The notes below the pieces were generated by a model. That model was given only the letters and a program-made list of their open reading frames with translations, made no database searches and was not told where the DNA came from. From the sequence record NC_073315.1: DNA of 43,947 nucleotides, one strand, 5' to 3'. Source of the DNA: Escherichia phage vB_EcoS_fFiEco03. The translations under genes were made by a program, and so were the position numbers. Numbering within the stretch: position 1 is the first letter of the stretch; every line of letters begins with the position of its first letter. This document shows positions 2,782-38,614 of the stretch, piece by piece.

Positions 2782-3858
2782 ATGCTATTAACTTTAGCGC
2801 CACAGGGTTTATCTATGAGCTTACTTACATCTCTAATCAGCCACCAGATATGGCTGCAACGCACTGCATCCGGTGAGGTGAAAGACCTCGCGCCGTTCAT
2901 TAAGGAGATGCGGGACGAAATAAAACGGCAGGTGCTGTTATTCGGTGACGACGGGCGGAGCACTGCGCGACTGAATAAACTGTTACTCGACCTTGAAGAA
3001 GCACTGACGTGGCTTACAGGTGACTGGCAAACAAAGCTGACAGAAGACCTTAAGGAACTGGCCGCATATGAGGCTGAGTGGAACGTAAAAACACTGACCG
3101 CCAACGTTGACGCGGAATTTGTTACGCCTACCGCCGAACAGGTGTGGGCTGCTGCCGAGTTTCAGCCGCTGTCGTTAAGCGACAAGCCCGTCGATTTCAC
3201 TAAGCTGATGGCAGGCTGGGGTGAAACGGAGGCCGCGCGCCTCGTAACCGGCGTTAAGATGGGGTTTGTTCAGGGCCAAACCACACGGCAGATTGTTAAA
3301 AATGTCGTAGGCGCTGGTGGGCTGGCGGACATCTCTGAACGCAACGCGGCTACGGTAATCCGCACCGCGCTGTCTCACGTATCCAACGAAGCCCGCAACG
3401 AGACATACCGCCAGAACGACGACATCATCGAGAAATACGAGTGGGTGTCAACGCTGGACAGCCGCACCAGCACGATTTGCAGGGCCAGAGACGGAATGAC
3501 GTGGGAAATTGGTAAAGGGCCGATGCCACCCGCGCATCCTAATTGCCGAAGCACCACCGCGCCTGTAATCAGTTCGGAGTTCGACTTCCTCGATAAAGGC
3601 GCAAAACGCGCGGCTAAGGGTGCGGACGGCGGTACTCAGGTAAGTGCAGACACCACCTATTACGAGTTCCTTAAACAACAACCGGCGTGGTTTCAGGATG
3701 AAGCATTAGGGCCAGTTCGCGGTAAGATTTTCCGTAACAGCGGTATATCGCCGGAAGAGTTTCGCGTAATATCTGTAGATGGTTTCGGGAATCCGCTCAC
3801 GCTTAAGCAGATGGCGGAACTCGATAAACGTGTTGCTGATTATCTGAAAGGGGATTAA
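2782..3858 (+). CDS. Head morphogenesis protein (SPP1 gp7 / Mu F-like minor head protein)
   Basis: 358-aa ORF in the terL-portal-morphogenesis order. No clear SD at 2782, and an alternative ATG lies at 2815, so the start is uncertain. Confidence 0.7.
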   Translation: MLLTLAPQGLSMSLLTSLISHQIWLQRTASGEVKDLAPFIKEMRDEIKRQVLLFGDDGRSTARLNKLLLDLEEALTWLTGDWQTKLTEDLKELAAYEAEWNVKTLTANVDAEFVTPTAEQVWAAAEFQPLSLSDKPVDFTKLMAGWGETEAARLVTGVKMGFVQGQTTRQIVKNVVGAGGLADISERNAATVIRTALSHVSNEARNETYRQNDDIIEKYEWVSTLDSRTSTICRARDGMTWEIGKGPMPPAHPNCRSTTAPVISSEFDFLDKGAKRAAKGADGGTQVSADTTYYEFLKQQPAWFQDEALGPVRGKIFRNSGISPEEFRVISVDGFGNPLTLKQMAELDKRVADYLKGD

Positions 3859-4319
3859 TGATGGGCTTTTTCAAAGTAACTGATGTACCCGCGCGCCGCG
3901 TAGTCCAGTACGCCCGTGTGTCTGGCTCCGGCGAGAATGTGGTGTTTATTGAAGATGAAAGTGTACTAGGTACACCGGTAGACGATATGCCGTTCGCAGA
4001 TAAAACCGGTATTGCGCTACCGGCGGCGGGCATGCTTTACGAGATTCCGTATCTGGCAGACGCTGGTGACGTGTATTTCTCTGTGCAACCGAAAGACACC
4101 GAGCTGGTCGACGGTAGCACCACCATCACCGTCGAAGTTAAGGCAGGTAAAGCGCCGTATGTACTGACCTGGTACAAAGACGGGAAGGAAGTGGTGAACG
4201 CCCCGGAAGAGGCTCTGTCTCTGACTGTTAATGCGGCTGGTGAATACTTCGTTAAAGTTACTGATGCTGATGGGGTAGAGGCGGTAAGCAAGGCGGCGAA
4301 GGTTACTAAGCCAGAATGA
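3858..4319 (+). CDS. Hypothetical virion protein with C-terminal Ig-like domain
   Basis: 153 aa; ATG overlaps the upstream stop (TAATGATG); C-terminal segment resembles the Ig-like fold motif also seen in ORF 7948..8298 (PY..W.KD). Confidence 0.45.
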   Translation: MMGFFKVTDVPARRVVQYARVSGSGENVVFIEDESVLGTPVDDMPFADKTGIALPAAGMLYEIPYLADAGDVYFSVQPKDTELVDGSTTITVEVKAGKAPYVLTWYKDGKEVVNAPEEALSLTVNAAGEYFVKVTDADGVEAVSKAAKVTKPE

Positions 4320-4323
4320 TAAA

Positions 4324-4353
4324 AGGCCCCGTTAAGGGGCCTTAGTTTTATTT
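4324..4353. terminator. Bidirectional intrinsic terminator at convergent gene ends
   Basis: AGGCCCC-GTTAA-GGGGCCT stem-loop followed by TAGTTTTATTT; lies between the + gene ending 4319 and the - gene ending 4348. Confidence 0.6.
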
Positions 4354-4869
4354 AAATCGCGCTGGCATTAGCACCATAAATGCAGTGTTTGAAAACGATA
4401 TTTTGCATCCTCTGGTTTGGTCCTGGAAATCGAAACGAGCAATTTCATTTTTGTATGCCTTAGAAATCTTGTGCGCGTCTGCCAAGTAGGGCATGGTAAA
4501 TCCTATGCTATCAACTGCCCCCGGCGTGATGTGCGCCACACGTCGCCAGTCAGGAAATTTTCCGTCTACAACATCCACCGGAAGTGTACATATAAGCGCA
4601 CGACTATCGTCATAGAAAGATACACTGCCGTTGTCGTGGTCTACTTCCGCGTAGTTAAATTTAGAAGGCTCTCTCCCTTTTATGTCTATGAGAGCCCCAT
4701 TCTCAACGTTTGTCTTAACATTGTCGCAGAACAATCTATGGCCGTCCGTAGACACTATCAATCCTTCCGGGTCTATGTAAAAAGCGTTCAGATAGTAGCG
4801 TACATCATTTTTAGCCCTGCAGATTTTCGCCCCTACATACGCGGGAAAAGTAATTACTGTGGCAACCAT
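4348..4869 (-). CDS. Truncated DnaN-like (beta sliding clamp-like) protein, 173 aa
   Basis: Contains DVRYYLN...TDGHRL, DGKFPDWRRV and C-terminal MVLMPARFK, matching E. coli DnaN landmarks (DVRYYLNGMLF...TDGHRL, DGRFPDYRRV, VVMPMRL) recalled from memory; AGGAG RBS and own promoter. Confidence 0.6.
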   Translation of the reverse strand: MVATVITFPAYVGAKICRAKNDVRYYLNAFYIDPEGLIVSTDGHRLFCDNVKTNVENGALIDIKGREPSKFNYAEVDHDNGSVSFYDDSRALICTLPVDVVDGKFPDWRRVAHITPGAVDSIGFTMPYLADAHKISKAYKNEIARFDFQDQTRGCKISFSNTAFMVLMPARFK

Positions 4870-4896
4870 TTTACATCTCCTGTTTAAGTTATCCGA

Positions 4897-4925
4897 ATAG
4901 TACCCTATTATGTTGGTGTCTGCAA
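4897..4925 (-). promoter_or_regulatory. Sigma70-like promoter, class I (TTGCAG-N17-TACTAT), drives the DnaN-like gene
   Basis: Read on the - strand: -35 TTGCAG, 17-nt spacer containing ATAATAGGG, -10 TACTAT. Same architecture as the promoters at 14663, 37107 and 38586. Confidence 0.55.
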
Positions 4926-4991: not shown

Positions 4992-5020
4992 TTGACTTTT
5001 CACTAAAAATATGCTAAGCT
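4992..5020 (+). promoter_or_regulatory. Sigma70-like promoter, class III (TTGACT-N17-TAAGCT, extended -10 TG)
   Basis: -35 TTGACT, 17-nt spacer ending in TGC, -10 TAAGCT. Near-identical to the promoter at 36798..36826. Confidence 0.6.
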
Positions 5021-5026
5021 CCACCT

Positions 5027-5134
5027 GAGCTTGTGAAGTATGAACAAGCGACCGCGGCGCGGGCAGGTAACGGAGCGGGACGTAAGTCCTGAGTGTAGTT
5101 ACGCTGACGCGTTCGGTAGGGCCATACTCTATTG
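5027..5134 (+). ncRNA. Promoter-proximal conserved structured RNA element, copy A (candidate sRNA or cis-acting leader)
   Basis: Begins at the predicted +1 of the 4992 promoter; about 80 percent identical to 36832..36941; two hairpins conserved with compensatory changes; frame not conserved between copies; terminator follows at 5201..5228. Confidence 0.45.
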
Positions 5135-10908: not shown

Positions 10909-12075
10909 ATGGCTACAACTCCTTTTAAGGGCGCGAATACCGCGCAATTCTATGTGGCGGAAACTACCCCGGGCGTGACACCGACTTCCCCGGTATGGTC
11001 GCCGTTGCGCAATACTGGCGGTGTTCCTGCGGTAACCCGCGACGCGCTGACCTCCAACGAACTCGACGGCAGCAGAGAAACCACATCCATCCGCACCGGT
11101 AACAAACAGGTTAGCGGGGAGTACGCCATCGAACTTAGCTCACGTAGCCAGGATGATTTCCTTGCGGGTGCTATGACTTCTACGTGGCAGGATGGGGTAG
11201 AGATTACGGGTGCTGAAATTACGGTCGCTCCAGCAGGTAAAACATTCACCCGCGCTGCCGGTAGCTTCATTACTGACGGTGTAGAAGTTGGCGACCTGAT
11301 TGCGTTCACCGACTTAACCGGCGACAACGCAAAACCGTTTATCGTGACTGAGGTTTCTGCTCTTGTAGTTACGGGTGCGGGTATCCAGCACACGCTGACA
11401 GCAGAGACTGTAACCACCGACGCTAAAACAGGCGATAAACTGGAAACCGGTAACGCATGTAAGACGTTCTCCATCCTGACATGGTTCAAAGGACAGTGCG
11501 GGAACCCTGACGCGTACATGCTGACCAAAGGCGTGGAAATCTCCGGTTTCACCATTGAACAGGCCGTAAACGCGATGGTGACAGGCAGCTTCCCGTTCAT
11601 CGGTCTGAGTCAGGAAATTCTTTCTGCACCGCCAGCAGGTTCTGATTTCTCTCAGGTGACGTTTACCGATGAGCCGTTCTCATCCGTAGATGTGTCTGTG
11701 TTCGACGGTTCTACGCCGTTGCGTTGCGATACTCTGACCATCACCAACGACAACGGTGCGTCCGCACAGTTCGAACTAGGCAACAGTAGCGTCGCGTTCG
11801 TGGAACGTGGTCGCGCGGCTAACACATTCTCCATCTCCGGCAAGCTGTACGACATGGCGATGATTCAGAAGTTTATCAACGAACAGCAGGTAGAGATTAA
11901 CTCTATTCTGGCGGGGGTAAACGGGGCTATGTCTTTCAGCCTGAAACGTGCCGAGTTGACCGCAGTTACGCCAGAAATATCTGGCCCAGAATCAATCACC
12001 CAGAGCATAGAGGGACAGTCCACCGGCAATCAGTACCAGTCATCTATCGTAATTCAGCGTATTAGTTACACATAA
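10909..12075 (+). CDS. Major tail protein
   Basis: ATG at 10909 with AAGAGG RBS; about 388 aa; followed by a strong terminator and, further on, the chaperone and tape measure genes. Confidence 0.65.
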   Translation: MATTPFKGANTAQFYVAETTPGVTPTSPVWSPLRNTGGVPAVTRDALTSNELDGSRETTSIRTGNKQVSGEYAIELSSRSQDDFLAGAMTSTWQDGVEITGAEITVAPAGKTFTRAAGSFITDGVEVGDLIAFTDLTGDNAKPFIVTEVSALVVTGAGIQHTLTAETVTTDAKTGDKLETGNACKTFSILTWFKGQCGNPDAYMLTKGVEISGFTIEQAVNAMVTGSFPFIGLSQEILSAPPAGSDFSQVTFTDEPFSSVDVSVFDGSTPLRCDTLTITNDNGASAQFELGNSSVAFVERGRAANTFSISGKLYDMAMIQKFINEQQVEINSILAGVNGAMSFSLKRAELTAVTPEISGPESITQSIEGQSTGNQYQSSIVIQRISYT

Positions 12076-12120
12076 CTTGTGGTATAAGAAGAGTAAAGGA
12101 TAGCTTTAGCGGGCGAAAAA

Positions 12121-12150
12121 GAGAGGGGTCGTGCCCTCTCTTTCCTTTAT
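12121..12150 (+). terminator. Intrinsic terminator after the major tail gene
   Basis: GAGAGGG-GTCGTG-CCCTCTC stem-loop followed by TTTCCTTTAT. Confidence 0.65.
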
Positions 12151-12182
12151 ACGGTAAATACACGAGCCTGACGAGGTGAATA

Positions 12183-12815
12183 ATGTTCTTGTATGAAGAA
12201 TTTGAAAAGATACCAGCATCAAAACGGGCGGTATCATGCCGTAAAACAATCTGCGGAGTCGGTGTCAACGATGCAGATTTCACCACCAGTATTTTCAACG
12301 GCAAAAAGTCTGTTAACCACCCGGTGTACGATATTTGGTGTGCGATGATATTCAGGTGCTACCATGGGTCCGTTAAGCATCCAACATACTCAGGAGTGGT
12401 AGTGTGTGAAGACTGGCTGTATTTCTCCAACTACTTTAAATGGTACAAAGATAACTACGTAGAGGGTTGGCATGTTGACAAAGATTTGCTTACGGATTCT
12501 AAAGAATACTCACCGGATACCTGTATATTTGTCCCAAGAGTTTTAAACAACTTTCTAACCGACAGCGCAGCGGCTAGAGGTGACCTACCGATAGGCCTTA
12601 CTTATAGGAAAACAAACGGCAAGATTCGATGCAGGGTTAATAATCCGCTAACCGGGGTGCGCGAAAACTTAGGCGATTTTACCGATTTGGATGAAGCCAT
12701 CAAGGCCAGAACGCTGCGGAAGTTAGAGATAGCCGGAGAACTTAAGCCACTTATGGATTCCATAGACGGGAGAATCTATCCGAGGGCCGTTTCTGTAATT
12801 AAGGCACAACGATAA
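12183..12815 (+). CDS. Putative homing endonuclease (HNH-like nuclease domain plus C-terminal AP2-like DNA-binding domain)
   Basis: N-terminal W..M..RC...HP.Y.G..VC.DW..F..F..W...EGWHVDKDLL...YSPDTC pattern; C-terminal GKIRCRVNNPLTGVRENLGDFTDLDEAIKA (AP2-like); free-standing between terminators. Confidence 0.55.
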   Translation: MFLYEEFEKIPASKRAVSCRKTICGVGVNDADFTTSIFNGKKSVNHPVYDIWCAMIFRCYHGSVKHPTYSGVVVCEDWLYFSNYFKWYKDNYVEGWHVDKDLLTDSKEYSPDTCIFVPRVLNNFLTDSAAARGDLPIGLTYRKTNGKIRCRVNNPLTGVRENLGDFTDLDEAIKARTLRKLEIAGELKPLMDSIDGRIYPRAVSVIKAQR

Positions 12816-12819
12816 AACT

Positions 12820-12845
12820 AAGGCCCCTTTCGGGGCCTTTTTCTT
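12820..12845. terminator. Bidirectional intrinsic terminator (28-nt sequence repeated at 24735..24762)
   Basis: AAGGCCCC-TTTC-GGGGCCTT with U-rich flanks on both strands; convergent junction. Confidence 0.7.
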
Positions 12846-13074
12846 ACTCATCAATATTGCTTCGGTACTCCCGTAACTTCTCCAGGCTTTCGATTGCCTC
12901 AGCTAAGTCTGTCCAGGTGTCCTTGTGACCACGTAAACCCATACACAATAGCTTCTTCAATGCGTGCTGTAACGCCGGGTCGCGTATGTCGAAGGCGCGT
13001 AGCACGTCGTAAACGTCTACAGTCATGGTGCTGCCGTGGGTGTTTGTCATTGTGCGGTTGTATTTATTTGTCAC
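12844..13074 (-). CDS. Hypothetical small protein (start ambiguous: 13074, 13050 or 13026)
   Basis: Last gene of the - strand island; no clear SD for any candidate start. Confidence 0.4.
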   Translation of the reverse strand: MTNKYNRTMTNTHGSTMTVDVYDVLRAFDIRDPALQHALKKLLCMGLRGHKDTWTDLAEAIESLEKLREYRSNIDE

Positions 13075-13264
13075 GGTTAACTCTCTTAAATCGGGCTATG
13101 CCTGACTCGTTAATGCTGCCTATTTCAAAGAAGCTGCGATATTTAGGCGAATACATTCTTACGTCGCCGTTCTCTAGGGTGACCCCTTCATATACAGCGC
13201 CTACTTCGAATCCATTTTTCTCCGCGTACGGACTCACATCGGTGCATTCATACATATCTTTCAT
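13064..13264 (-). CDS. Hypothetical protein, 66 aa
   Basis: ATG overlaps the stop of the upstream phosphoesterase gene (ATGA coupling). Confidence 0.5.
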   Translation of the reverse strand: MKDMYECTDVSPYAEKNGFEVGAVYEGVTLENGDVRMYSPKYRSFFEIGSINESGIARFKRVNRDK

Positions 13265-14391
13265 CCCAGCATCTCCGGTGAAATAGTTAAACGTGCGACC
13301 TCGCCATATTCGGCGCTATAAGTAATTACATTTGCACTACGGCCCGACATCCATCCGCCGCGCGAGGCGTAGGCGTCTTTAGCCGCTAAGGTGCGGTGTT
13401 GCTCAACAATCATGTTACGGCTTTCTACAATCTTCTGGTGGTGGAGGTGGCCTACGTGGGCGTAGCTGTAAACGCTTTCGCCAAATGCTTTGCGGAACTT
13501 GGCAATCATAACCGGTTCGATAGCGTCTAATCGCGCCTTATGCCCGTGGTGAAAGAACAGCGTAGTTTTGCCGTGTTTGACCATCTTGTAAACATCCGGC
13601 GACGTATCGACGAACACACGCGGCTCATTGTCGTACAGCGTACTAAACATCTCAGCTAACCAAATCATTCCGCTTTCGTCGTGGTTCCCTTGCACGATAA
13701 GCAAGCGAACAGATTTATGCTTAACCAGCGCCATGTCAACAACACGGCGTACCATACGAATCATGTAGCGGACCAGTTTCTGATAACGAGTGTCCGCATC
13801 AAGAACATGACCACTCGCTGGCGTAACCGCATCCAGACTATCGAAGTGCGCGAAGTCACCCAGCAGGTTAATAACCCCAGTTCCTGCATCTGGTGCTTTC
13901 TGAAACGCCGCATCGAACCATCGGGAGAACAGGTCTTCCGCAATCTTCATATCCCAGTCGTCGCCGCTCTCGTCAGCCCAGGCCAGCATACCAAGATGGA
14001 AATCAGATACCGTGTACAGATTGAGTAGTTTATCGTCGCGTTTGGCTCGAGTCGCTTTAACCGGCGCAACTGGCGTAATCTCCGACTTCATTCCTTCGAT
14101 CACGGCTTTCATTAACTCGACCTGACGTTCGGCGTCGGTGTCTGTCTTAACCCATTGCAACTTAGTGTTGCCGAACTCGTCCACCAGTGACGACGTTCCT
14201 TTAATTTTGTAGCCGTCCGGGACAAGATGGCTAACGTCACGACCGTGACCTACGCCTTTCTTCGCCAGCTTCGCTTTACGGATACGAATAACTCGGTCTG
14301 AGATGCCGTATTTACGGGATATGTCGATAATCTTTGTTCCGGCGTTCAATTCTTCCTGTAACTGTTCGTCGGTTATTTTCTTCCGGGCCAT
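13261..14391 (-). CDS. Calcineurin-like metallophosphoesterase with N-terminal HTH (SbcD/Mre11-like motifs)
   Basis: Motifs SDFHLG, GDFAHFD, GNHDES, FHHGH and GHLHH in canonical order; N-terminal HTH-like segment (ISRKYGISDRVIRIRKAKL); GAGGAAG RBS. Confidence 0.7.
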   Translation of the reverse strand: MARKKITDEQLQEELNAGTKIIDISRKYGISDRVIRIRKAKLAKKGVGHGRDVSHLVPDGYKIKGTSSLVDEFGNTKLQWVKTDTDAERQVELMKAVIEGMKSEITPVAPVKATRAKRDDKLLNLYTVSDFHLGMLAWADESGDDWDMKIAEDLFSRWFDAAFQKAPDAGTGVINLLGDFAHFDSLDAVTPASGHVLDADTRYQKLVRYMIRMVRRVVDMALVKHKSVRLLIVQGNHDESGMIWLAEMFSTLYDNEPRVFVDTSPDVYKMVKHGKTTLFFHHGHKARLDAIEPVMIAKFRKAFGESVYSYAHVGHLHHQKIVESRNMIVEQHRTLAAKDAYASRGGWMSGRSANVITYSAEYGEVARLTISPEMLG

Positions 14392-14429
14392 GCTTACTTC
14401 CTCGTGTTTAGGATTTGTCCTATACTAGC

Positions 14430-14621
14430 TCACTTCTCTTTGACATTCGAGTTGCAAGCCCAGATTAAAATAAATACCCACGGCAGCAGAACCCAGCCGA
14501 GAAACAGATTAGCCATGAATATCGCCAGTTTCGCTTTATGTCCGCGCATATGGGCCACTAAAAACGGGATAAAATAAACTAAAACGATAATGATTAAGAA
14601 GAACATAGTAATACCTGTCAT
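14430..14621 (-). CDS. Superinfection-immunity-like small membrane protein (2 TM)
   Basis: 63 aa from ATG 14621 with AGGAG RBS; motif YFIPFLVAHMRGHKAKLAIFMANLFLGWVLLPWVFILIWA resembles the Imm-type superinfection immunity family (recalled). Confidence 0.5.
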   Translation of the reverse strand: MTGITMFFLIIIVLVYFIPFLVAHMRGHKAKLAIFMANLFLGWVLLPWVFILIWACNSNVKEK

Positions 14622-14662
14622 GGTGTAGCTCCTGTTTGAGTTAACATTGTTGGTGTAAGTGA

Positions 14663-14691
14663 ATAGTATCCTATTATGTTGGGGTGCGCAA
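14663..14691 (-). promoter_or_regulatory. Sigma70-like promoter, class I (TTGCGC-N17-TACTAT), drives the reverse island
   Basis: On the - strand: TTGCGC, spacer ACCCCAACATAATAGGA, TACTAT. Near-identical to the + strand promoter at 37107..37135. Confidence 0.55.
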
Positions 14692-14799
14692 GTAATGTGA
14701 TAGAATAATTTTGCGCCTAGTGTCGCACACGAAAAGCGGGTGGTTCCCGTCTGGCGCATTTACCATTAACCTGTAACCTCTTAACCAAAGGATTAAAGA

Positions 14800-15216
14800 A
14801 TGAAACTTTCTGATTTTTATTACGAAGCTGAGGCAGAAAAAGGCGCCCGTATGCCGATACCACTGAAAGACGGCACCGATTCAGGGGAGTGGCTGAACGT
14901 TGTTTCACCGGAGGCAGACGTTGCTGTTAAAGCTATGAGGGCGTTTACACTTGCGTACCGCGCGGCATTAGGTAAATTGAAACCGCTTCGCGATAAATGC
15001 GAGGAACTGAAAGATTTCTCGGAATACAACATCAAGATGGAAGACGCCGCAACGGACCTTAACCGCCAGTTAGCGCTTGAACTGGTTAACGGTTGGAGTC
15101 TCGACGATGAATTTAATAAAGAGAACCTGAATACTCTTTTCTCACAATATAAACGACTCGCTGAACACGTTGTTGTTTTCCACAATGAACAGCTTCACCA
15201 ATTGCAGGAAAAGTAG
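14800..15216 (+). CDS. Tail assembly chaperone (gpG-like)
   Basis: 138-aa acidic protein directly upstream of the tape measure gene, with an overlapping downstream ORF in the -1 frame. Confidence 0.65.
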   Translation: MKLSDFYYEAEAEKGARMPIPLKDGTDSGEWLNVVSPEADVAVKAMRAFTLAYRAALGKLKPLRDKCEELKDFSEYNIKMEDAATDLNRQLALELVNGWSLDDEFNKENLNTLFSQYKRLAEHVVVFHNEQLHQLQEK

Positions 15217-15581
15217 ACGCGTTGCTCCAGTTTGCCCGTTGGAACTTCATAACCCGCCACAAACGGCGGGAGTTTGACAGTATCGCCGACGGGCATAAAG
15301 CCGCGCTAATTGCTATGGGGGTTATGCAAGACGCGCCGGAAGCAACGCAGGACACAGGGCCGGAATGCCCCCCTGAGCTATTAACCACCTTCGAGAAGTA
15401 CAGGGAAATCAAATTCACCCGCCGAGTGGACGATGATGGCATCAAGATGTACCCGCGCGAACAGTTAAGATGGTCGGATTTAGTGGCATACAGCACCGTT
15501 TCAGGCCAGAATATAGGCATGTTCGAATCTGACATCATCATGAGCTTAGACGCTATTTTCGAGGGTAGAAACGATGGCTGA
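15189..15581 (+). CDS. Tail assembly chaperone -1 frameshift extension (gpGT-like T segment)
   Basis: -1 frame open from 15189 and overlapping the last 8 codons of the G-like gene; candidate slip site GAA_AAG just before the G stop; ends overlapping the tape measure start. Confidence 0.45.
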   Translation, partial: TASPIAGKVDALLQFARWNFITRHKRREFDSIADGHKAALIAMGVMQDAPEATQDTGPECPPELLTTFEKYREIKFTRRVDDDGIKMYPREQLRWSDLVAYSTVSGQNIGMFESDIIMSLDAIFEGRNDG

Positions 15582-22744: not shown

Positions 22745-24736
22745 ATGTCAAGCGGATGCGGTGACGTTTTAAGCCTGGCGGATTTACAAACCGCCAAGAA
22801 GCACCAGATTTTCGAAATCGAGGTTATCACCGGTAAAGCAGGCGGTGTAGCCGGTGGAGCAGATATTGATTATGCAACGAACCAGGTTACCGGGCAGACT
22901 CAAAAGACTCTGCCCGCCGTGTTGCGTGATACTGGTTTTTCTCCTGTATCGTGGGATTTCTCCACTGGCGGTACTCTTACTGTTAATGACCGTGACAAAG
23001 TTGTCTACGACCCTGTAAGTAAAACGTGGTATTCATACGCAGGTACGTTGCCGGTTGTAGTCCCCTCGGGCTTTGACCCGGTAGGCAACGCAGACTGGAA
23101 GCCACAGACTGACCATGATTTGCGTAATGATTTGGCGTCAAGTACCGCCGGTTTAGGGGCTTCACTGGTGTCTTTTTCCAACGGTAATACCGTTGAAACA
23201 TTATCCGACGCAGATGGCGCTAAGAACATCGGCAGTGGAGAAAGGACATTGCTTGAGCACAACAATGATGTTTTGCACTCAAAAGACTTCCCAACACTGC
23301 AGGCAGCTATAGATGCATCTTTGCAAAAAAATGATCTACTGGTGTCTCCTGGTAATTATACTGAAAACGTGACGCTTGGTAATGCGCAACTGAAAGGCGT
23401 AGGTGGTGCTACGGTAATAAAGCCACAAGGTGATTTTTCAACTGCAGTGATGGCAAAATTATCAACACCACATTGGCAATACAGGCATAGTTGTAATTTT
23501 GAAATAGACGGAACCGGTACAACTGGTTCTGTCGGTTTTGGTTATGACCCTACGGACCAGTACTCGGGTCGTCACAATCTAAGCGATACCTACATCCATC
23601 ACATTAATAAAGCAATTTCTAAACCTTCTGGAAATATTGGTAATACTTTTCGTAGTATAGGTATTAACAATTGTGACTGGGGATATCACGCCATCAGTGG
23701 TACAGAGATGCACTGTGGAGCAGACACTCTGTATAACTTCCATATGAATAGCATTAGTACTTACGCTGTGTATCTGAATGCAACTATAGGAGCATCCTCT
23801 ACAGGAGGGGGAATTGGTGGTTGGTGGTTAAAAGACTCTATTATTGAAGGCTCAGAAGGTGGCGGGGTATATCTTAAGAATAAGCCAGGAGATTGCCCAA
23901 GTGCACCGTGTGGAATATCAAATGTATGGTTTGAGGCCATAGCCACTGCTGATGCAGTAAATGTTGATGGTGCTGCTATAGAACCAAGAACTTTACATTT
24001 AATTGACACAAGCATTTTCTATGCTGAATATTCATACATAAACAGCATAAAATTAGAAAGGTCAAACCTTATAACATACGGCTGTCGTTTCGATAATGCC
24101 GATGGAAATCAGAGTATAGAGATAGATGCTGAGAGTACTATTAAGGCTTACGATACTTATCTTAATGGCACTCCCGGTAAAGATGTTATTGTTGAGAGTA
24201 TAGCTTCACAGACGGGTAAGCTTCACACCATTGACCTGTGTTTGAGGGGTTCTATTACAAAAGGCAGACTGTTTAATACTCCTTCGGGGAATAAGTTGGC
24301 AGCAATACCTTTTGATGACGGAACGCATACATGGGGCGGGAATGCTAGTGTAACAGGGACCCTGGTAGGTATGGGGCTTCATTCAAAAAATTGTGAATCA
24401 TTTACATTCCCCGCTAACGCTGTTCTGGAATTAACTGACTCCAAAGTCAATATCACCAGCGGTAAGTGGTATGTATGGGGCATTAATGCCAGACTTAATT
24501 CTGGTGATATGAATATGAGGATTACAGGGGGGATCACTTTGGGTAGTGTTTATCTCAAGCAAGGTGAATGGGTCAGTACATTTGGAGTTGCTCAGGCCGA
24601 GGCATCAGAATCTGCAACGTTATACGTTACAACTTCTTCTGCGAGTGTTGTATATCTTGCTGACTATTTTGTTGCTGAATTTGCATCTCAGAGTGAGGCA
24701 ATGGCTTTCGCAAATACCAGAATGTCGTTGGTCTAA
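22745..24736 (+). CDS. Tailspike protein (conserved N-terminal anchor plus beta-helix-like receptor-binding or depolymerase domain)
   Basis: 663 aa with AGAGGA RBS; N-terminus MSSGCGDVLSLADLQTAKKHQIFEIEV recalled as the Jersey-like tailspike anchor; C-terminal part AT-richer with repetitive beta-helix-like motifs. Confidence 0.75.
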   Translation: MSSGCGDVLSLADLQTAKKHQIFEIEVITGKAGGVAGGADIDYATNQVTGQTQKTLPAVLRDTGFSPVSWDFSTGGTLTVNDRDKVVYDPVSKTWYSYAGTLPVVVPSGFDPVGNADWKPQTDHDLRNDLASSTAGLGASLVSFSNGNTVETLSDADGAKNIGSGERTLLEHNNDVLHSKDFPTLQAAIDASLQKNDLLVSPGNYTENVTLGNAQLKGVGGATVIKPQGDFSTAVMAKLSTPHWQYRHSCNFEIDGTGTTGSVGFGYDPTDQYSGRHNLSDTYIHHINKAISKPSGNIGNTFRSIGINNCDWGYHAISGTEMHCGADTLYNFHMNSISTYAVYLNATIGASSTGGGIGGWWLKDSIIEGSEGGGVYLKNKPGDCPSAPCGISNVWFEAIATADAVNVDGAAIEPRTLHLIDTSIFYAEYSYINSIKLERSNLITYGCRFDNADGNQSIEIDAESTIKAYDTYLNGTPGKDVIVESIASQTGKLHTIDLCLRGSITKGRLFNTPSGNKLAAIPFDDGTHTWGGNASVTGTLVGMGLHSKNCESFTFPANAVLELTDSKVNITSGKWYVWGINARLNSGDMNMRITGGITLGSVYLKQGEWVSTFGVAQAEASESATLYVTTSSASVVYLADYFVAEFASQSEAMAFANTRMSLV

Positions 24737-24740
24737 AACT

Positions 24741-24766
24741 AAGGCCCCTTTCGGGGCCTTTTCTCT
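24741..24766. terminator. Bidirectional intrinsic terminator (identical copy of the 12820 hairpin)
   Basis: AAGGCCCC-TTTC-GGGGCCTT followed by TTCTCT; junction of the convergent tailspike and replication operons. Confidence 0.7.
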
Positions 24767-24902
24767 ATTCTTCTGATACCTTCTCCAGTATAAACGCCAG
24801 TTGCGCGTTAGCGGCATCTCTCTGTTGCCGTAGTCTTAGCACTTCCTCTTCAAGTTCCTTGATACGTTTTTGCAATGCCGGAATCGGGGCTATGATGTTC
24901 AT
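24765..24902 (-). CDS. Micro-ORF: 45-aa coiled-coil peptide
   Basis: Hand-translated (MNIIAPIPALQKRIKELEEEVLRLRQQRDAANAQLAFILEKVSEE); its ATG overlaps the upstream stop (ATGA); last gene of the - operon. Confidence 0.35.
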   Translation of the reverse strand: MNIIAPIPALQKRIKELEEEVLRLRQQRDAANAQLAFILEKVSEE

Positions 24903-33597: not shown

Positions 33598-33621
33598 TGG
33601 GCTTTTCTAAAATAATTAATA

Positions 33622-33630
33622 TGGTACTAT
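33622..33630 (+). promoter_or_regulatory. Extended -10 promoter (TGgTACTAT) for the Cro-like gene
   Basis: TG-N-TACTAT with a poor -35; overlaps the second ACTATTCACAT(A/G)TCAA repeat. Confidence 0.45.
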
Positions 33631-33661
33631 TCACATATCAACTGACTAAGGAGTAATTGAC

Positions 33662-33877
33662 ATGCAACCATCTGAACTAGGTATCCGTGTAGAGCAACGC
33701 CGCAAAGAACTCGGCATCTCCCAGCGCCGTCTGGCTGTCCTGGCGGGCGTTTCCCAGGGCGCGATTAACCAGCTGGCACTTGGGGCAACTCAGGACGTCC
33801 GCCCGGCGACGCTGTTTAAACTGGCGGAAGTGCTGCAAGTAGACGCTAAGTGGCTGGCGTTCGGTGAAGGGGCTTAA
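33662..33877 (+). CDS. XRE-family HTH transcriptional regulator (Cro/CI-type)
   Basis: 71 aa; HTH ISQRRLAVLAGVSQGAINQLALG; AAGGAG RBS; monocistronic between its promoter and a terminator. Confidence 0.8.
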   Translation: MQPSELGIRVEQRRKELGISQRRLAVLAGVSQGAINQLALGATQDVRPATLFKLAEVLQVDAKWLAFGEGA

Positions 33878-36797: not shown

Positions 36798-36826
36798 TTG
36801 ACTTTTACTTAAAAATATGCTAAGCT
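36798..36826 (+). promoter_or_regulatory. Sigma70-like promoter, class III (TTGACT-N17-TAAGCT, extended -10 TG)
   Basis: Near-identical to 4992..5020 (spacer differs at 2 positions). Confidence 0.6.
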
Positions 36827-36831
36827 TCACT

Positions 36832-36941
36832 GAGCTTGTGAGATATCGCAAGCGACCGCGGAGCGGCAGGGAACGCAACGCGTGCCATTAGGCACTTGAG
36901 TGTAGTTCCGCTGGCGCTTTCGGAAGGGCCAAAGTCTATTG
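36832..36941 (+). ncRNA. Promoter-proximal conserved structured RNA element, copy B
   Basis: Starts at predicted +1; alignable to 5027..5134 with one indel; hairpins GCTTGTG/CGCAAGC and GTGCC-ATTA-GGCAC correspond to GCTTGT/ACAAGC and GGAC-GTAA-GTCC in copy A. Confidence 0.45.
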
Positions 36942-37106: not shown

Positions 37107-37135
37107 TTGCACACCCCAATATAATAGGATACTAT
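37107..37135 (+). promoter_or_regulatory. Sigma70-like promoter, class I (TTGCAC-N17-TACTAT)
   Basis: TTGCAC, spacer ACCCCAATATAATAGGA, TACTAT; followed by a conserved AACGAGA..GGAG leader. Confidence 0.6.
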
Positions 37136-37168
37136 TCACTTATCTAAACGAGACAGAGGAGTAGGGTT

Positions 37169-38585: not shown

Positions 38586-38614
38586 TTGCACACTGGGATA
38601 GAATAGGCTACTAT
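38586..38614 (+). promoter_or_regulatory. Sigma70-like promoter, class I (TTGCAC-N17-TACTAT)
   Basis: TTGCAC, spacer ACTGGGATAGAATAGGC, TACTAT; conserved AACGAGAGGAG leader. Confidence 0.6.

What the first reader, a model, noticed from the sequence alone, without database searches (positions are those of the whole stretch)
12844..14691. Reverse-strand moron island inside the tail gene cluster
Four translationally coupled - strand genes sit between the major tail gene/HNH and the tail chaperones: a superinfection-immunity-like membrane protein, an HTH-metallophosphoesterase and two small proteins. They are driven by a class I promoter identical in core to the early promoter at 37107 and end at the shared 28-nt bidirectional terminator. 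This looks like a host-interaction or exclusion cassette expressed independently of late genes.
Basis: partly seen in the sequence, partly recalled or inferred. Interest (0 to 1): 0.65.

Follow-up and report, generated by a model that had tools for sequence, protein, structure and literature searches.

The report
Conserved antisense early operon in tail genes
Four backward-facing genes inside the tail genes of this E. coli phage (a Kagunavirus) are real and have their own early-type promoter, but they form a known operon kept across the phage subfamily (a T4-Imm-like exclusion protein plus a very widespread nuclease-like enzyme), and only the edges of the operon are swappable accessory genes.

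Summary
Four minus-strand ORFs lie at 12844-14621, with a sigma-70-type promoter at 14656-14691. That promoter matches the promoter at 37107-37142 in 34 of 36 bases. A bidirectional hairpin terminator at 12820-12839 has near-copies at 24734 and 4314.

The window is a Kagunavirus, 99.9% identical here to phage fPoEco01, where these genes already carry the same annotations.

- **Gene 1** is a true T4 Imm-family membrane protein. Its Pfam score is above threshold, it is 30% identical to T4 Imm, and the two functionally tested T4 residues are conserved.
- **Gene 2** is an HTH-fused binuclear metallophosphoesterase with all catalytic motifs intact. Its closest folds are the PolD-DP1 exonuclease and Mre11/SbcD. 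Full-length homologues occur in about 2,000 phage genomes, usually in DNA-metabolism modules and often followed by a split polynucleotide kinase/phosphatase.
- **Genes 3 and 4** fill a variable slot.

"Moron island" is only partly right. Imm plus the phosphoesterase sit at this junction in most of the subfamily (K1G, SETP3, metagenomic relatives), and Imm is replaced by other envelope proteins in some loci. The phosphoesterase is a conserved gene; only the flanking slots vary.

The promoter carries the palindrome AATAGN4CTATT, found in seven early or replication promoters, which supports expression separate from the late genes.

Novelty is low. I tested the idea that Imm alleles are matched to tape-measure alleles and rejected it.

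The parts
14656..14691 (-). Sigma-70-type promoter, TTGCGC-N17-TACTAT ('class A'), for the cassette
   Evidence: It matches 37107-37142 in 34 of 36 bases. The same architecture occurs at 4897-4925 (-) and 38586-38614 (+): 4 matches against 0.27 expected. It is conserved in K1G, K-02 and fBC-Eco01, and weakly in SETP3 and LP31. A promoter is annotated at the equivalent place in SETP3 and fBC-Eco01. No transcript data exist for this phage.
14662..14675 (.). Palindrome AATAGTATCCTATT overlapping the -10 hexamer; candidate operator
   Evidence: AATAGN4CTATT occurs 7 times in the window against 0.04 expected. Every copy lies inside a promoter-like site. The binding protein is unknown; the operator role is inferred.
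14430..14621 (-). Imm-family inner-membrane protein, 63 aa (superinfection immunity homologue)
   Evidence: PF14373 gives 51.6 bits (cut-off 27.9) and phrog_1039 'immunity to superinfection' gives 84.7 bits. BLASTP against T4 Imm: 30% identity over 54 aa without gaps, E 2e-12. T4 R33 and W50 correspond to R26 and W43. Two hydrophobic segments flank a basic loop.
13261..14391 (-). HTH-fused binuclear metallophosphoesterase, 376 aa (predicted Mre11/DP1-like nuclease)
13064..13264 (-). p66, small ORF of unknown function (variable slot 2)
   Evidence: It has no Pfam, PHROG, NCBIfam or PADLOC match. It is 94-100% conserved in fBC-Eco01, L018, L028 and L032 and is also annotated at the same place in fEg-Eco19. 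It is absent from K1G, K-02 and SETP3.
12844..13074 (-). p76, small ORF (variable slot 2), a module often fused to the C-terminus of longer phage proteins
   Evidence: phrog_2452 gives 131.7 bits against profile positions 150-220 of 235. It is 78-98% identical in Kagunavirus and Jerseyvirus relatives, even where the neighbouring phosphoesterase is only 55% identical.
12820..12839 (.). Bidirectional intrinsic terminator hairpin (AAGGCCCC-TTTC-GGGGCCTT)
   Evidence: It is scored as terminator-like on both strands. It is repeated at 24734-24773 and inverted at 4314-4351. A terminator is annotated at the equivalent place in fBC-Eco01 and SETP3.
12183..12815 (+). HNH homing-endonuclease gene inserted between the tail-tube gene and the terminator (flank, not part of the operon)
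   Evidence: phrog_953 HNH endonuclease gives 233.6 bits. It is present in fPoEco01, fEg-Eco19 and L019, and absent from K1G, fBC-Eco01 and most loci.
14710..14774 (+). Structured element in the leader of the tail-chaperone/tape-measure genes, back-to-back with the cassette promoter (flank)
   Evidence: Rfam int-alpA (RF02996), full-length match, 32.5 bits against a gathering score of 35.8, E 3e-4. The intergenic segment is 94-100% identical in loci whose flanks are only about 50-60% identical.

Best explanation
The region is a conserved transcription unit read by host RNA polymerase. It lies antisense inside the tail-gene block of Guernseyvirinae phages and belongs to the early/replication regulon, not to the late genes.

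Transcription (inferred from sequence): it starts at TTGCGC-N17-TACTAT (14656-14691), whose -10 hexamer sits inside the palindrome AATAGN4CTATT shared by seven promoters. It ends at the bidirectional hairpin at 12820-12839.

Gene 1 is a homologue of T4 Imm. By analogy with T4, it inserts in the inner membrane and blocks genome entry of later-arriving related phages, probably by interfering with their tape-measure protein. Homology is shown; the activity is inferred.

Gene 2 is an active-site-intact binuclear metallophosphoesterase fused to an N-terminal helix-turn-helix. It most likely acts as a Mn2+/Mg2+-dependent DNA nuclease of the Mre11/PolD-DP1 type. It would work on phage replication or recombination intermediates, on host DNA, or on both. 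In many relatives it is followed by a split polynucleotide kinase/phosphatase, which suggests joint nucleic-acid end-processing. Fold and motifs are shown; the substrate is inferred.

Genes 3 and 4 (p66, p76) are small accessory ORFs in an exchangeable slot.
For: Anatomy and repeats.

The same cassette sits at the same junction in K1G, SETP3, LP31, K-02 and fBC-Eco01 and in 39 IMG/VR loci that carry a tail-chaperone match on the flank.

Imm. The T4 Imm/tape-measure mechanism and the R33A and W50A effects come from bioRxiv 10.64898/2026.03.06.709160.

Phosphoesterase:
- Invariant motifs.
- Model with pLDDT 92.
- A weak profile hit to Mre11 covers motifs I-II, with GDxxH aligned.
- 2,039 phage records hold a homologue, 1,953 at 80% coverage or more.
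- 4,673 clusters at 50% identity match at E <= 0.001.
- It lies in DNA-metabolism modules of Drexlerviridae and Autographiviridae.
- The order phosphoesterase, HAD_PNKP phosphatase (73 bits), P-loop kinase is seen in K1G, K-02, Webervirus, L063 and L065. In the J8-65 group the kinase is replaced by a diphosphohydrolase-domain ORF.

A second reverse cassette at 4314-4925 carries a beta-clamp-like gene with the same promoter class and the same hairpin.

In RNA-seq of Kagunavirus K1B4, the Imm gene peaked with the DNA polymerase and methylases, not with the structural genes (PMC12645636).
Against: - There is no transcript map for this phage. The K1B4 study has coarse, multi-cycle time points and labels that class 'late'.
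- Pfam Metallophos scores are below threshold (18.9 against 21.5; 21.9 against 27), and sequence searches of the PDB give only E of about 0.03.
- No Rad50/SbcC partner is annotated in the near-identical genome, and there is no Mre11 capping domain.
- No member of this HTH-phosphoesterase family has been characterised, as far as my searches show.
- Imm looks dispensable in some relatives. LP31 has ACG in place of the start codon. Other loci carry a different envelope protein in its place.
Confidence: 0.7

Rival explanations
1. One reading: the whole cassette is a horizontally acquired moron island, a dispensable host-interaction or exclusion module dropped into the tail cluster.
For: - It has its own promoter and terminator.
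- Its GC content is lower than its neighbours': cassette 0.485 and Imm 0.40, against tube 0.53 and tape-measure 0.52.
- It contains an Imm homologue.
- The distal slot varies between p66+p76, p76 alone, split PNKP, Ant/Rha, HNH, a methyltransferase and a small membrane protein.
- Slot 1 varies between Imm and signal-peptide proteins.
Against: - The phosphoesterase is present in every Guernseyvirinae-type locus examined, always at the same junction. These loci were retrieved through the phosphoesterase, so this shows a constant position rather than universality.
- It is 93-99% identical across the Kagunavirus-type loci.
- Full-length homologues occur in about 2,000 phages of other families, inside replication modules.
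- Imm-like ORFs were found in 379 records, against 493 records with a tail-tube match of 60% identity or more.
- The lower GC is shared with the phage's own early region (0.462).
Confidence: 0.2
2. The phosphoesterase is an early host-takeover nuclease. It degrades or nicks the host chromosome, which supplies nucleotides and silences host defence genes. It does not serve phage replication or recombination.
For: - The promoter is of the early type.
- There is an experimental precedent: the early metallophosphoesterase gp48 of mycobacteriophage A10ZJ24 disrupts host genomic DNA and silences defence genes (PMC12287305).
- In relatives it is associated with HAD phosphatase and nucleotide-kinase-like genes.
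- The closest folds are nucleases.
Against: - gp48 has its first metal motif at D10, so it lacks the N-terminal HTH extension of about 120 aa, and no similarity to it was tested here.
- In Drexlerviridae and Autographiviridae the gene sits among replication and recombination genes, not among the earliest host-takeover genes.
- No host-DNA degradation data were found for Kagunavirus.
Confidence: 0.25
3. The phosphoesterase is an RNA-repair or counter-defence enzyme. It would act as a 2',3'-cyclic phosphodiesterase/3'-phosphatase, working with a polynucleotide kinase to heal tRNAs cut by host anticodon nucleases, or it would hydrolyse cyclic-nucleotide immune signals.
For: - It is repeatedly adjacent to HAD_PNKP phosphatase and P-loop kinase genes.
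- The cyclic-nucleotide phosphodiesterase Rv0805 is among the Foldseek hits.
- From my own knowledge: bacterial Pnkp of Clostridium thermocellum uses a metallophosphoesterase domain for end healing.
Against: - This window has no kinase or phosphatase. p66 and p76 are unrelated to them.
- No RNA ligase is annotated in the near-identical genome.
- The N-terminal HTH and the GDxxH motif point to DNA.
- There are no PADLOC or other family hits.
Confidence: 0.12

Closest known systems
The same cassette in published Guernseyvirinae genomes (K1G ORF18-21, SETP3 gp20-23, fPoEco01 PE1_020-023, fBC-Eco01 gp24c-28c)
   Same: Same position between the tail-tube and tail-chaperone genes, and the same opposite orientation. 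Gene order is Imm then phosphoesterase. The promoter and terminator lie at the same places. The window is 99.9% identical to fPoEco01 over 12000-15300.
   Different: The distal genes differ. K1G and K-02 carry a HAD_PNKP phosphatase plus a P-loop kinase. SETP3 carries p76 plus an Ant/Rha protein. This window carries p66 plus p76, with an HNH gene on the other strand. fPoEco01 annotates Imm as a 109-aa ORF that would begin upstream of the promoter.
T4 Imm (superinfection immunity protein, Pfam PF14373)
   Same: A small protein with two hydrophobic segments. It is 30% identical over 54 aa, and the MRG and W positions corresponding to T4 R33 and W50 are conserved (the mutant data are).
   Different: It is 63 aa against 83 aa, and it comes from a siphovirus, not a myovirus. 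No exclusion assay has been done. The companion T4 protein Sp has no homologue here, although some relatives carry a periplasmic protein in place of Imm.
Mre11/SbcD nucleases and the PolD DP1 proofreading exonuclease
   Different: Sequence identity is 12-16%. There is no capping domain, no Rad50/SbcC partner and no PolD large subunit. Instead there is an N-terminal three-helix HTH plus a beta-hairpin.
Mycobacteriophage A10ZJ24 gp48, an early metallophosphoesterase that damages host DNA (PMC12287305)
   Same: A phage-encoded metallophosphoesterase expressed early and acting on DNA.
   Different: It belongs to a different phage lineage. Its first metal motif is at D10, so it has no HTH extension. 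Homology beyond the superfamily level was not tested.
T4-type polynucleotide kinase/phosphatase (Pnkp)
   Same: Relatives carry its two halves as separate genes directly after the phosphoesterase: HAD_PNKP at 67-73 bits, plus a P-loop kinase.
   Different: Both halves are absent from this window.

Membership tests
T4 Imm family (PF14373 Imm_superinfect) | Profile match above Pfam's gathering score | tested here: met
   51.6 bits against 27.9, covering profile positions 1-42 of 42. On the same model T4 Imm scores 58.2, K1G 48.6 and SETP3 56.7.
T4 Imm family (PF14373 Imm_superinfect) | Direct similarity to T4 Imm, including the residues shown to matter (R33, W50) | tested here: met
   BLASTP gives 30% identity over 54 aa without gaps, E 2e-12. 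R26 and W43 align with T4 R33 and W50. The mutant data are from bioRxiv 10.64898/2026.03.06.709160.
T4 Imm family (PF14373 Imm_superinfect) | Small membrane protein with hydrophobic helices around a basic loop | tested here: met
   In 15-residue windows the Kyte-Doolittle mean exceeds 2.5 for residues about 1-24 and is 1.7-2.5 for about 31-58, with HMRGHKAK between them. No dedicated topology predictor was available.
T4 Imm family (PF14373 Imm_superinfect) | Blocks genome entry of superinfecting phage | not testable with these tools
   This needs expression of the protein and a phage challenge.
Calcineurin-like binuclear metallophosphoesterase superfamily | Five metal-binding and catalytic motifs (DxH, GD, GNH[DE], H, GHxH) | tested here: met
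   D130, H132, G178, D179, N236, H237, H282, G314 and H317 are invariant in 80 sequences of 31-49% identity.
Calcineurin-like binuclear metallophosphoesterase superfamily | Pfam Metallophos / Metallophos_2 match above threshold | tested here: not met
Mre11/SbcD nuclease family | Nuclease-type motif II with histidine (GDxxH) | tested here: met
   GDFAH(182) aligns with GDLLH of T. maritima Mre11. H182 is conserved in at least 90% of homologues.
Mre11/SbcD nuclease family | Capping domain after the phosphoesterase core, and a Rad50/SbcC ATPase partner | tested here: not met
   The model ends shortly after the core and has an N-terminal HTH instead. No SbcC or Rad50 gene is annotated in the near-identical genome. 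It is therefore not filed as Mre11/SbcD, only as Mre11-like in its active site.
Moron (accessory gene unit with own promoter and terminator, variably present among related phages) | Own promoter and terminator | tested here: met
   Promoter at 14656-14691 and hairpin at 12820-12839. This is sequence evidence only.
Moron (accessory gene unit with own promoter and terminator, variably present among related phages) | Presence or absence varies among close relatives at the same junction | tested here: not met
   Not met for the cassette and its phosphoesterase, which occupy the junction in K1G, SETP3, LP31 and 39 IMG/VR loci. Met only for the flanking slots: p66, p76, PNKP, Ant and HNH on one side, and Imm versus signal-peptide proteins on the other.
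Rfam int-alpA RNA (RF02996), for the flanking element at 14710-14774 | Covariance-model score at or above the gathering score | tested here: inconclusive
   32.5 bits against 35.8, a full-length match, E 3e-4 over 2.5 kb and 5e-3 over the whole window. K1G scores 31.8 and L041 scores 33.5. A pattern taken from the phage copy retrieves bona fide int-alpA RNAs of 44-72 bits elsewhere.

The most novel reading that the evidence does not exclude
The cassette may be a two-part competition unit whose parts are far more general than their annotations suggest.

(i) The slot next to the tape-measure genes may be a hot-swappable exclusion slot. It holds at least five kinds of envelope-targeted protein: T4-Imm homologues, three kinds of periplasmic two-cysteine protein that show no sequence match to one another, and a single-pass membrane protein.

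(ii) The HTH-metallophosphoesterase, present in about 2,000 sequenced phages and more than 4,600 protein clusters, may be a general early nuclease that attacks host or competitor DNA. That would give a function to one of the largest uncharacterised phage enzyme families.

Separately, the int-alpA-like element next door could be a phage late-operon leader whose relatives sit in integrative elements between int and alpA.
Probability: 0.2. Interest if true: 0.6.

Novelty: already known. Interest (0 to 1): 0.27.

Why it matters
As it stands, this is a correct description of a gene block that is already annotated in nearly identical public genomes. Its main value is to correct the label. It is an early/replication-class operon embedded antisense in the tail genes, not a foreign island.

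Three open points remain worth attention:
- The HTH-metallophosphoesterase family is very large and has no tested function.
- The slot beside the tape-measure genes collects different envelope proteins. This fits the recent finding that T4 Imm acts on the tape-measure protein.
- Seven promoters share one palindrome, which points to a simple regulatory switch in a group of phages that is used for therapy.

Tried and rejected
**1. Cognate pairing of Imm alleles with tape-measure alleles.** In 39 loci (35 IMG/VR, 4 GenBank) the slot-1 type matched the chaperone/tape-measure allele perfectly. This held across a 94-100% conserved 145-nt spacer. A wider search then found both reciprocal recombinants. 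UTEC10 and EcoPhCCP1 carry the K-type Imm N-terminus with W-type chaperone and tape-measure genes. fEg-Eco19 carries the W-type N-terminus with K-type genes. Physical proximity explains the linkage, so I rejected the idea for the W and K alleles.

**2. p76 as a remnant of the P-loop kinase found in relatives.** This was suggested by PHROG hits to the C-termini of longer 'ATPase' families. There is no similarity to the K-02 or Webervirus kinases. Rejected.

**3. Sequence-only identification of the phosphoesterase.**
- phmmer against the PDB gave nothing meaningful.
- Profiles gave only E of about 0.03-0.3 to Mre11.
- NCBIfam and PADLOC gave nothing.
- The top 120 hits of the first homologue search were all at least 96% identical and useless for a profile.
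- The BFVD fold search returned only uncharacterised phage homologues.

**4. Literature on this protein family.** Searches found no characterisation. One search failed on a term that was too short.

**5. blastn of the intergenic element against E. coli genomes.** No match. The degenerate pattern scan of bacterial genomes returned mostly chance hits, plus some true int-alpA RNAs.

**6. Thermodynamic folding of the intergenic region.** It was no better than shuffled sequence (z = -0.02). Support for a structure rests on the Rfam match and on a few compensatory changes seen by eye.
Full report
**What the window is.** Megablast of 12000-15300 against GenBank phages gives 99.9% identity over the whole query to Escherichia phage vB_EcoS_fPoEco01 (Guernseyvirinae, Kagunavirus). 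It gives matches in 354 records, almost all Salmonella and Escherichia phages of that subfamily. The annotation of fPoEco01 shows the layout. Packaging, head and tail genes are on the plus strand. Replication genes are on the minus strand from about 25 to 37 kb. A plus-strand block of small early genes follows from about 37 kb.

**Check of the observation.** The four minus-strand ORFs exist at the stated places (sequence):
- Imm, 14430-14621. The mechanical ORF is 109 aa, but K1G, K-02 and fBC-Eco01 annotate the 63-aa form. That form has AGGAG 7 nt before its ATG and lies downstream of the promoter.
- A 376-aa HTH-metallophosphoesterase, 13261-14391.
- p66, 13064-13264.
- p76, 12844-13074.

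The phosphoesterase and p66 overlap as ATGA, and p66 and p76 overlap by 11 nt. Imm and the phosphoesterase are 38 nt apart. 'Translationally coupled' therefore holds for three genes, not four.

The promoter claim is right. 14656-14691 (-) and 37107-37142 (+) are identical in 34 of 36 bases, with none expected by chance. The terminator claim is right too. An 8-bp GC-rich hairpin at 12820-12839 scores on both strands. It has a copy with 29 identical bases at 24734 and an inverted copy at 4314-4351.

**The promoter family.** TTGCNC-N17-TACTAT occurs four times: 4897 (-), 14663 (-), 37107 (+) and 38586 (+), against 0.27 expected. The palindrome AATAGN4CTATT occurs seven times against 0.04 expected. 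When each copy is oriented by its downstream genes, two architectures appear:
- The four sites above, where the palindrome covers the -10 hexamer.
- Three sites in the replication region (27226, 30959, 33574), reading TTGACA-N17-TATAGT, with the palindrome in the spacer.

A palindrome placed over the core of seven sigma-70-like promoters is what an operator for a dimeric regulator looks like. That reading is inference. The fBC-Eco01 paper reported the same seven sites as PHIRE 'phage promoters' with consensus tgAATAGTa-ccTATTat-T (PMC9825357), so the element is not new.

The cassette thus shares its control region with the early and replication genes. A second reverse cassette at 4314-4925 in the head module uses the same promoter class and the same hairpin. 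Its ORF at 4348-4869 is annotated as beta-clamp-like in relatives.

The only transcriptome of a Kagunavirus (K1B4) groups the Imm gene with the DNA polymerase and methylases, not with the structural genes. Its time points (5-120 min) are coarse, and the authors call that group 'late' (PMC12645636).

**Gene 1.**
- Pfam Imm_superinfect scores 51.6 bits against a cut-off of 27.9, and phrog_1039 'immunity to superinfection' scores 84.7 bits.
- I fetched T4 imm and compared directly: 30% identity over 54 residues without gaps, E 2e-12.
- A 2026 preprint shows that T4 Imm binds the tape-measure protein gp29, and that R33A and W50A weaken exclusion. In the alignment these residues correspond to R26 and W43, and both are conserved.
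- Hydropathy shows two hydrophobic segments around the basic loop HMRGHKAK.

Membership of the Imm family is well supported. The exclusion activity is inferred.

**Gene 2.**
- Pfam sees only sub-threshold Metallophos matches, while phrog_704 ('DNA repair exonuclease') scores 550 bits.
- tblastn finds homologues in 2,039 phage records, 1,953 of them at 80% coverage or more. They include Guernseyvirinae, Dhillonvirus, Drexlerviridae including Webervirus, an Autographiviridae group, Vibrio phages and N4-like roseophages.
- An exhaustive HMMER search finds 4,673 clusters at 50% identity with E <= 0.001.
- In 80 homologues of 31-49% identity, D130, H132, G178, D179, N236, H237, H282, G314 and H317 are invariant. 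The binuclear metal site is therefore intact.
- An AlphaFold model built on that alignment has pLDDT 92. It shows a three-helix HTH (residues 8-44), a beta-hairpin with a helix (61-104), and the phosphoesterase core from 119.
- A profile search of PDB sequences gives weak hits to T. maritima Mre11, in which GDFAH aligns with GDLLH.

I read this as a DNA nuclease of the Mre11/DP1 type, with the HTH providing DNA binding. The margin over other phosphoesterases is small, there is no Rad50/SbcC partner, and nothing in the family has been tested. One experimental precedent for an early phage metallophosphoesterase that damages host DNA is gp48 of mycobacteriophage A10ZJ24 (PMC12287305). It lacks the HTH extension.

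- K1G has Imm, phosphoesterase, a PNK-type phosphatase and an ATP-binding protein at the same junction and in the same orientation.
- SETP3 has Imm, phosphoesterase, p76 and an Ant/Rha protein.
- K-02 and fBC-Eco01 are further variants.
- Among 80 IMG/VR loci retrieved through the phosphoesterase, 39 also carry a tail-chaperone match on the flank, and nearly all of those also carry the tail-tube gene on the other side. In all of them the phosphoesterase lies between those genes. Because the loci were found through this protein, this shows constant position, not universality.

The flanks vary:
- **Slot 2 (distal).** It holds HAD_PNKP phosphatase plus P-loop kinase, or p66 plus p76, or p76 alone, or p76 plus Ant, or an HNH gene, a methyltransferase, or a small membrane protein.
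- **Slot 1 (proximal).** It holds Imm in three alleles. Alternatively it holds proteins of about 107-120 aa with a signal peptide and two cysteines (one kind is phrog_14165, of unknown function), or a single-pass membrane protein.

Outside the subfamily, the phosphoesterase ends the replication operon of Drexlerviridae and lies among the DNA-metabolism genes of phage J8-65. It is again often followed by a PNK-type phosphatase and a kinase. The phosphoesterase is therefore a conserved gene with accessory slots on either side, not a moron.

**An idea tested and dropped.** T4 Imm acts on the tape-measure protein, and the slot-1 gene abuts the chaperone and tape-measure genes. I therefore asked whether the alleles are matched.
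- In 39 loci the association was perfect. It spanned a spacer that is 94-100% identical while both flanks are only about 50-60% identical.
- A search of GenBank phages with 14556-15216 then found both reciprocal recombinants.
- UTEC10 and EcoPhCCP1 combine the K-type Imm N-terminus with W-type chaperone and tape-measure genes. fEg-Eco19 is the reverse.

Proximity explains the linkage, so no allele-specific pairing can be claimed.

**The conserved spacer.** 14710-14774 on the plus strand is the leader of the chaperone/tape-measure genes.
- It matches Rfam int-alpA RNA end to end at 32.5 bits, just under the gathering score of 35.8.
- K1G and a divergent locus score 31.8 and 33.5.
- The first inner hairpin shows three mutually compensating versions: GUG/CAC, CGG/CCG and CCG/CGG.
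- Thermodynamic folding alone is unremarkable.
- A pattern taken from the phage copy retrieves bona fide int-alpA RNAs (44-72 bits) in bacterial and viral contigs.
- In the two contexts I read, the RNA lies between an integrase gene and an AlpA-like gene.

I record this as a side observation. It is not part of the cassette.

**Verdict.** It is half wrong: the unit is conserved at this junction in the subfamily relatives examined, and its largest gene is a conserved nucleic-acid enzyme. Everything in the cassette is already annotated in near-identical public genomes, so novelty is low. The remaining interest lies in the untested function of the very large HTH-metallophosphoesterase family and in the exchangeable envelope-protein slot beside the tape-measure genes.

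Noticed in passing
window 14710-14774 (+); also L014 2293-2357, L041 3457-3520: The spacer between the cassette promoter and the tail-chaperone gene matches Rfam int-alpA RNA full length, just below threshold (32.5 against 35.8 bits). It is 94-100% conserved while both flanks are about 50-60% identical. True int-alpA RNAs retrieved with a phage-derived pattern lie between integrase and AlpA-like genes of integrative elements.
   Followed up: partly
window 4896, 14662, 27226, 30959, 33574, 37123, 38602: The palindrome AATAGN4CTATT occurs 7 times (0.04 expected), always over the core of a sigma-70-like promoter and in two registers. It looks like the operator of one phage regulator controlling the early, replication and reverse-cassette promoters. 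A degenerate copy at 33617-33641 lies upstream of an XRE-like ORF (33662-33877 +). The sites were published as PHIRE 'phage promoters' for fBC-Eco01.
   Followed up: partly
window 4314-4925 (-), ORF 4348-4869: A second reverse-strand cassette sits inside the head-gene block. It is a 173-aa ORF annotated as beta-clamp-like (POL3Bc) in relatives, with the same promoter class (4897-4925) and the same hairpin terminator (4314-4351) as the finding.
   Followed up: partly
window 12183-12815 (+): An HNH homing-endonuclease gene lies between the tail-tube gene and the shared terminator. It is present in fPoEco01, fEg-Eco19 and L019 and absent from K1G, fBC-Eco01 and most relatives. Other relatives carry different HNH genes inside the cassette itself (L030 and L035, 5137-5610).
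   Followed up: partly
L021/L024 3610-3936, L037 3609-3938, L041 3596-3919, L040 1752-2114, L042 2065-2403, L035 about 3660-3962: In relatives that lack Imm, the same slot holds other envelope-targeted proteins. These are signal-peptide proteins of about 107-120 aa with two cysteines 34-39 residues apart (one kind is phrog_14165, of unknown function), or a single-pass membrane protein.
   Followed up: partly
L006 (Salmonella phage LP31) about 3260-3440, against L015 (SETP3) 2447-2626: In LP31 the Imm start codon reads ACG where SETP3 has ATG, leaving only a 40-aa TTG-started ORF. Imm may be inactive, and so dispensable, in that phage. A sequencing error is the alternative.
   Followed up: no
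window 4992-5024 / 36798-36830 and 5090-5134 / 36897-36941: Two further direct repeats (88% and 87% identity) pair the region next to the head-module reverse cassette with the region just upstream of the early promoter at 37107. The first contains TTGACT...TAAGCT and may be another promoter class.
   Followed up: no
fPoEco01 record MT711526, PE1_023 (equivalent to window 14430-14759): The public annotation of Imm in the nearest relative uses the 109-aa ORF. That ORF would begin upstream of the promoter. The 63-aa form used for K1G, K-02 and fBC-Eco01 fits the promoter and the ribosome-binding site.
   Followed up: yes
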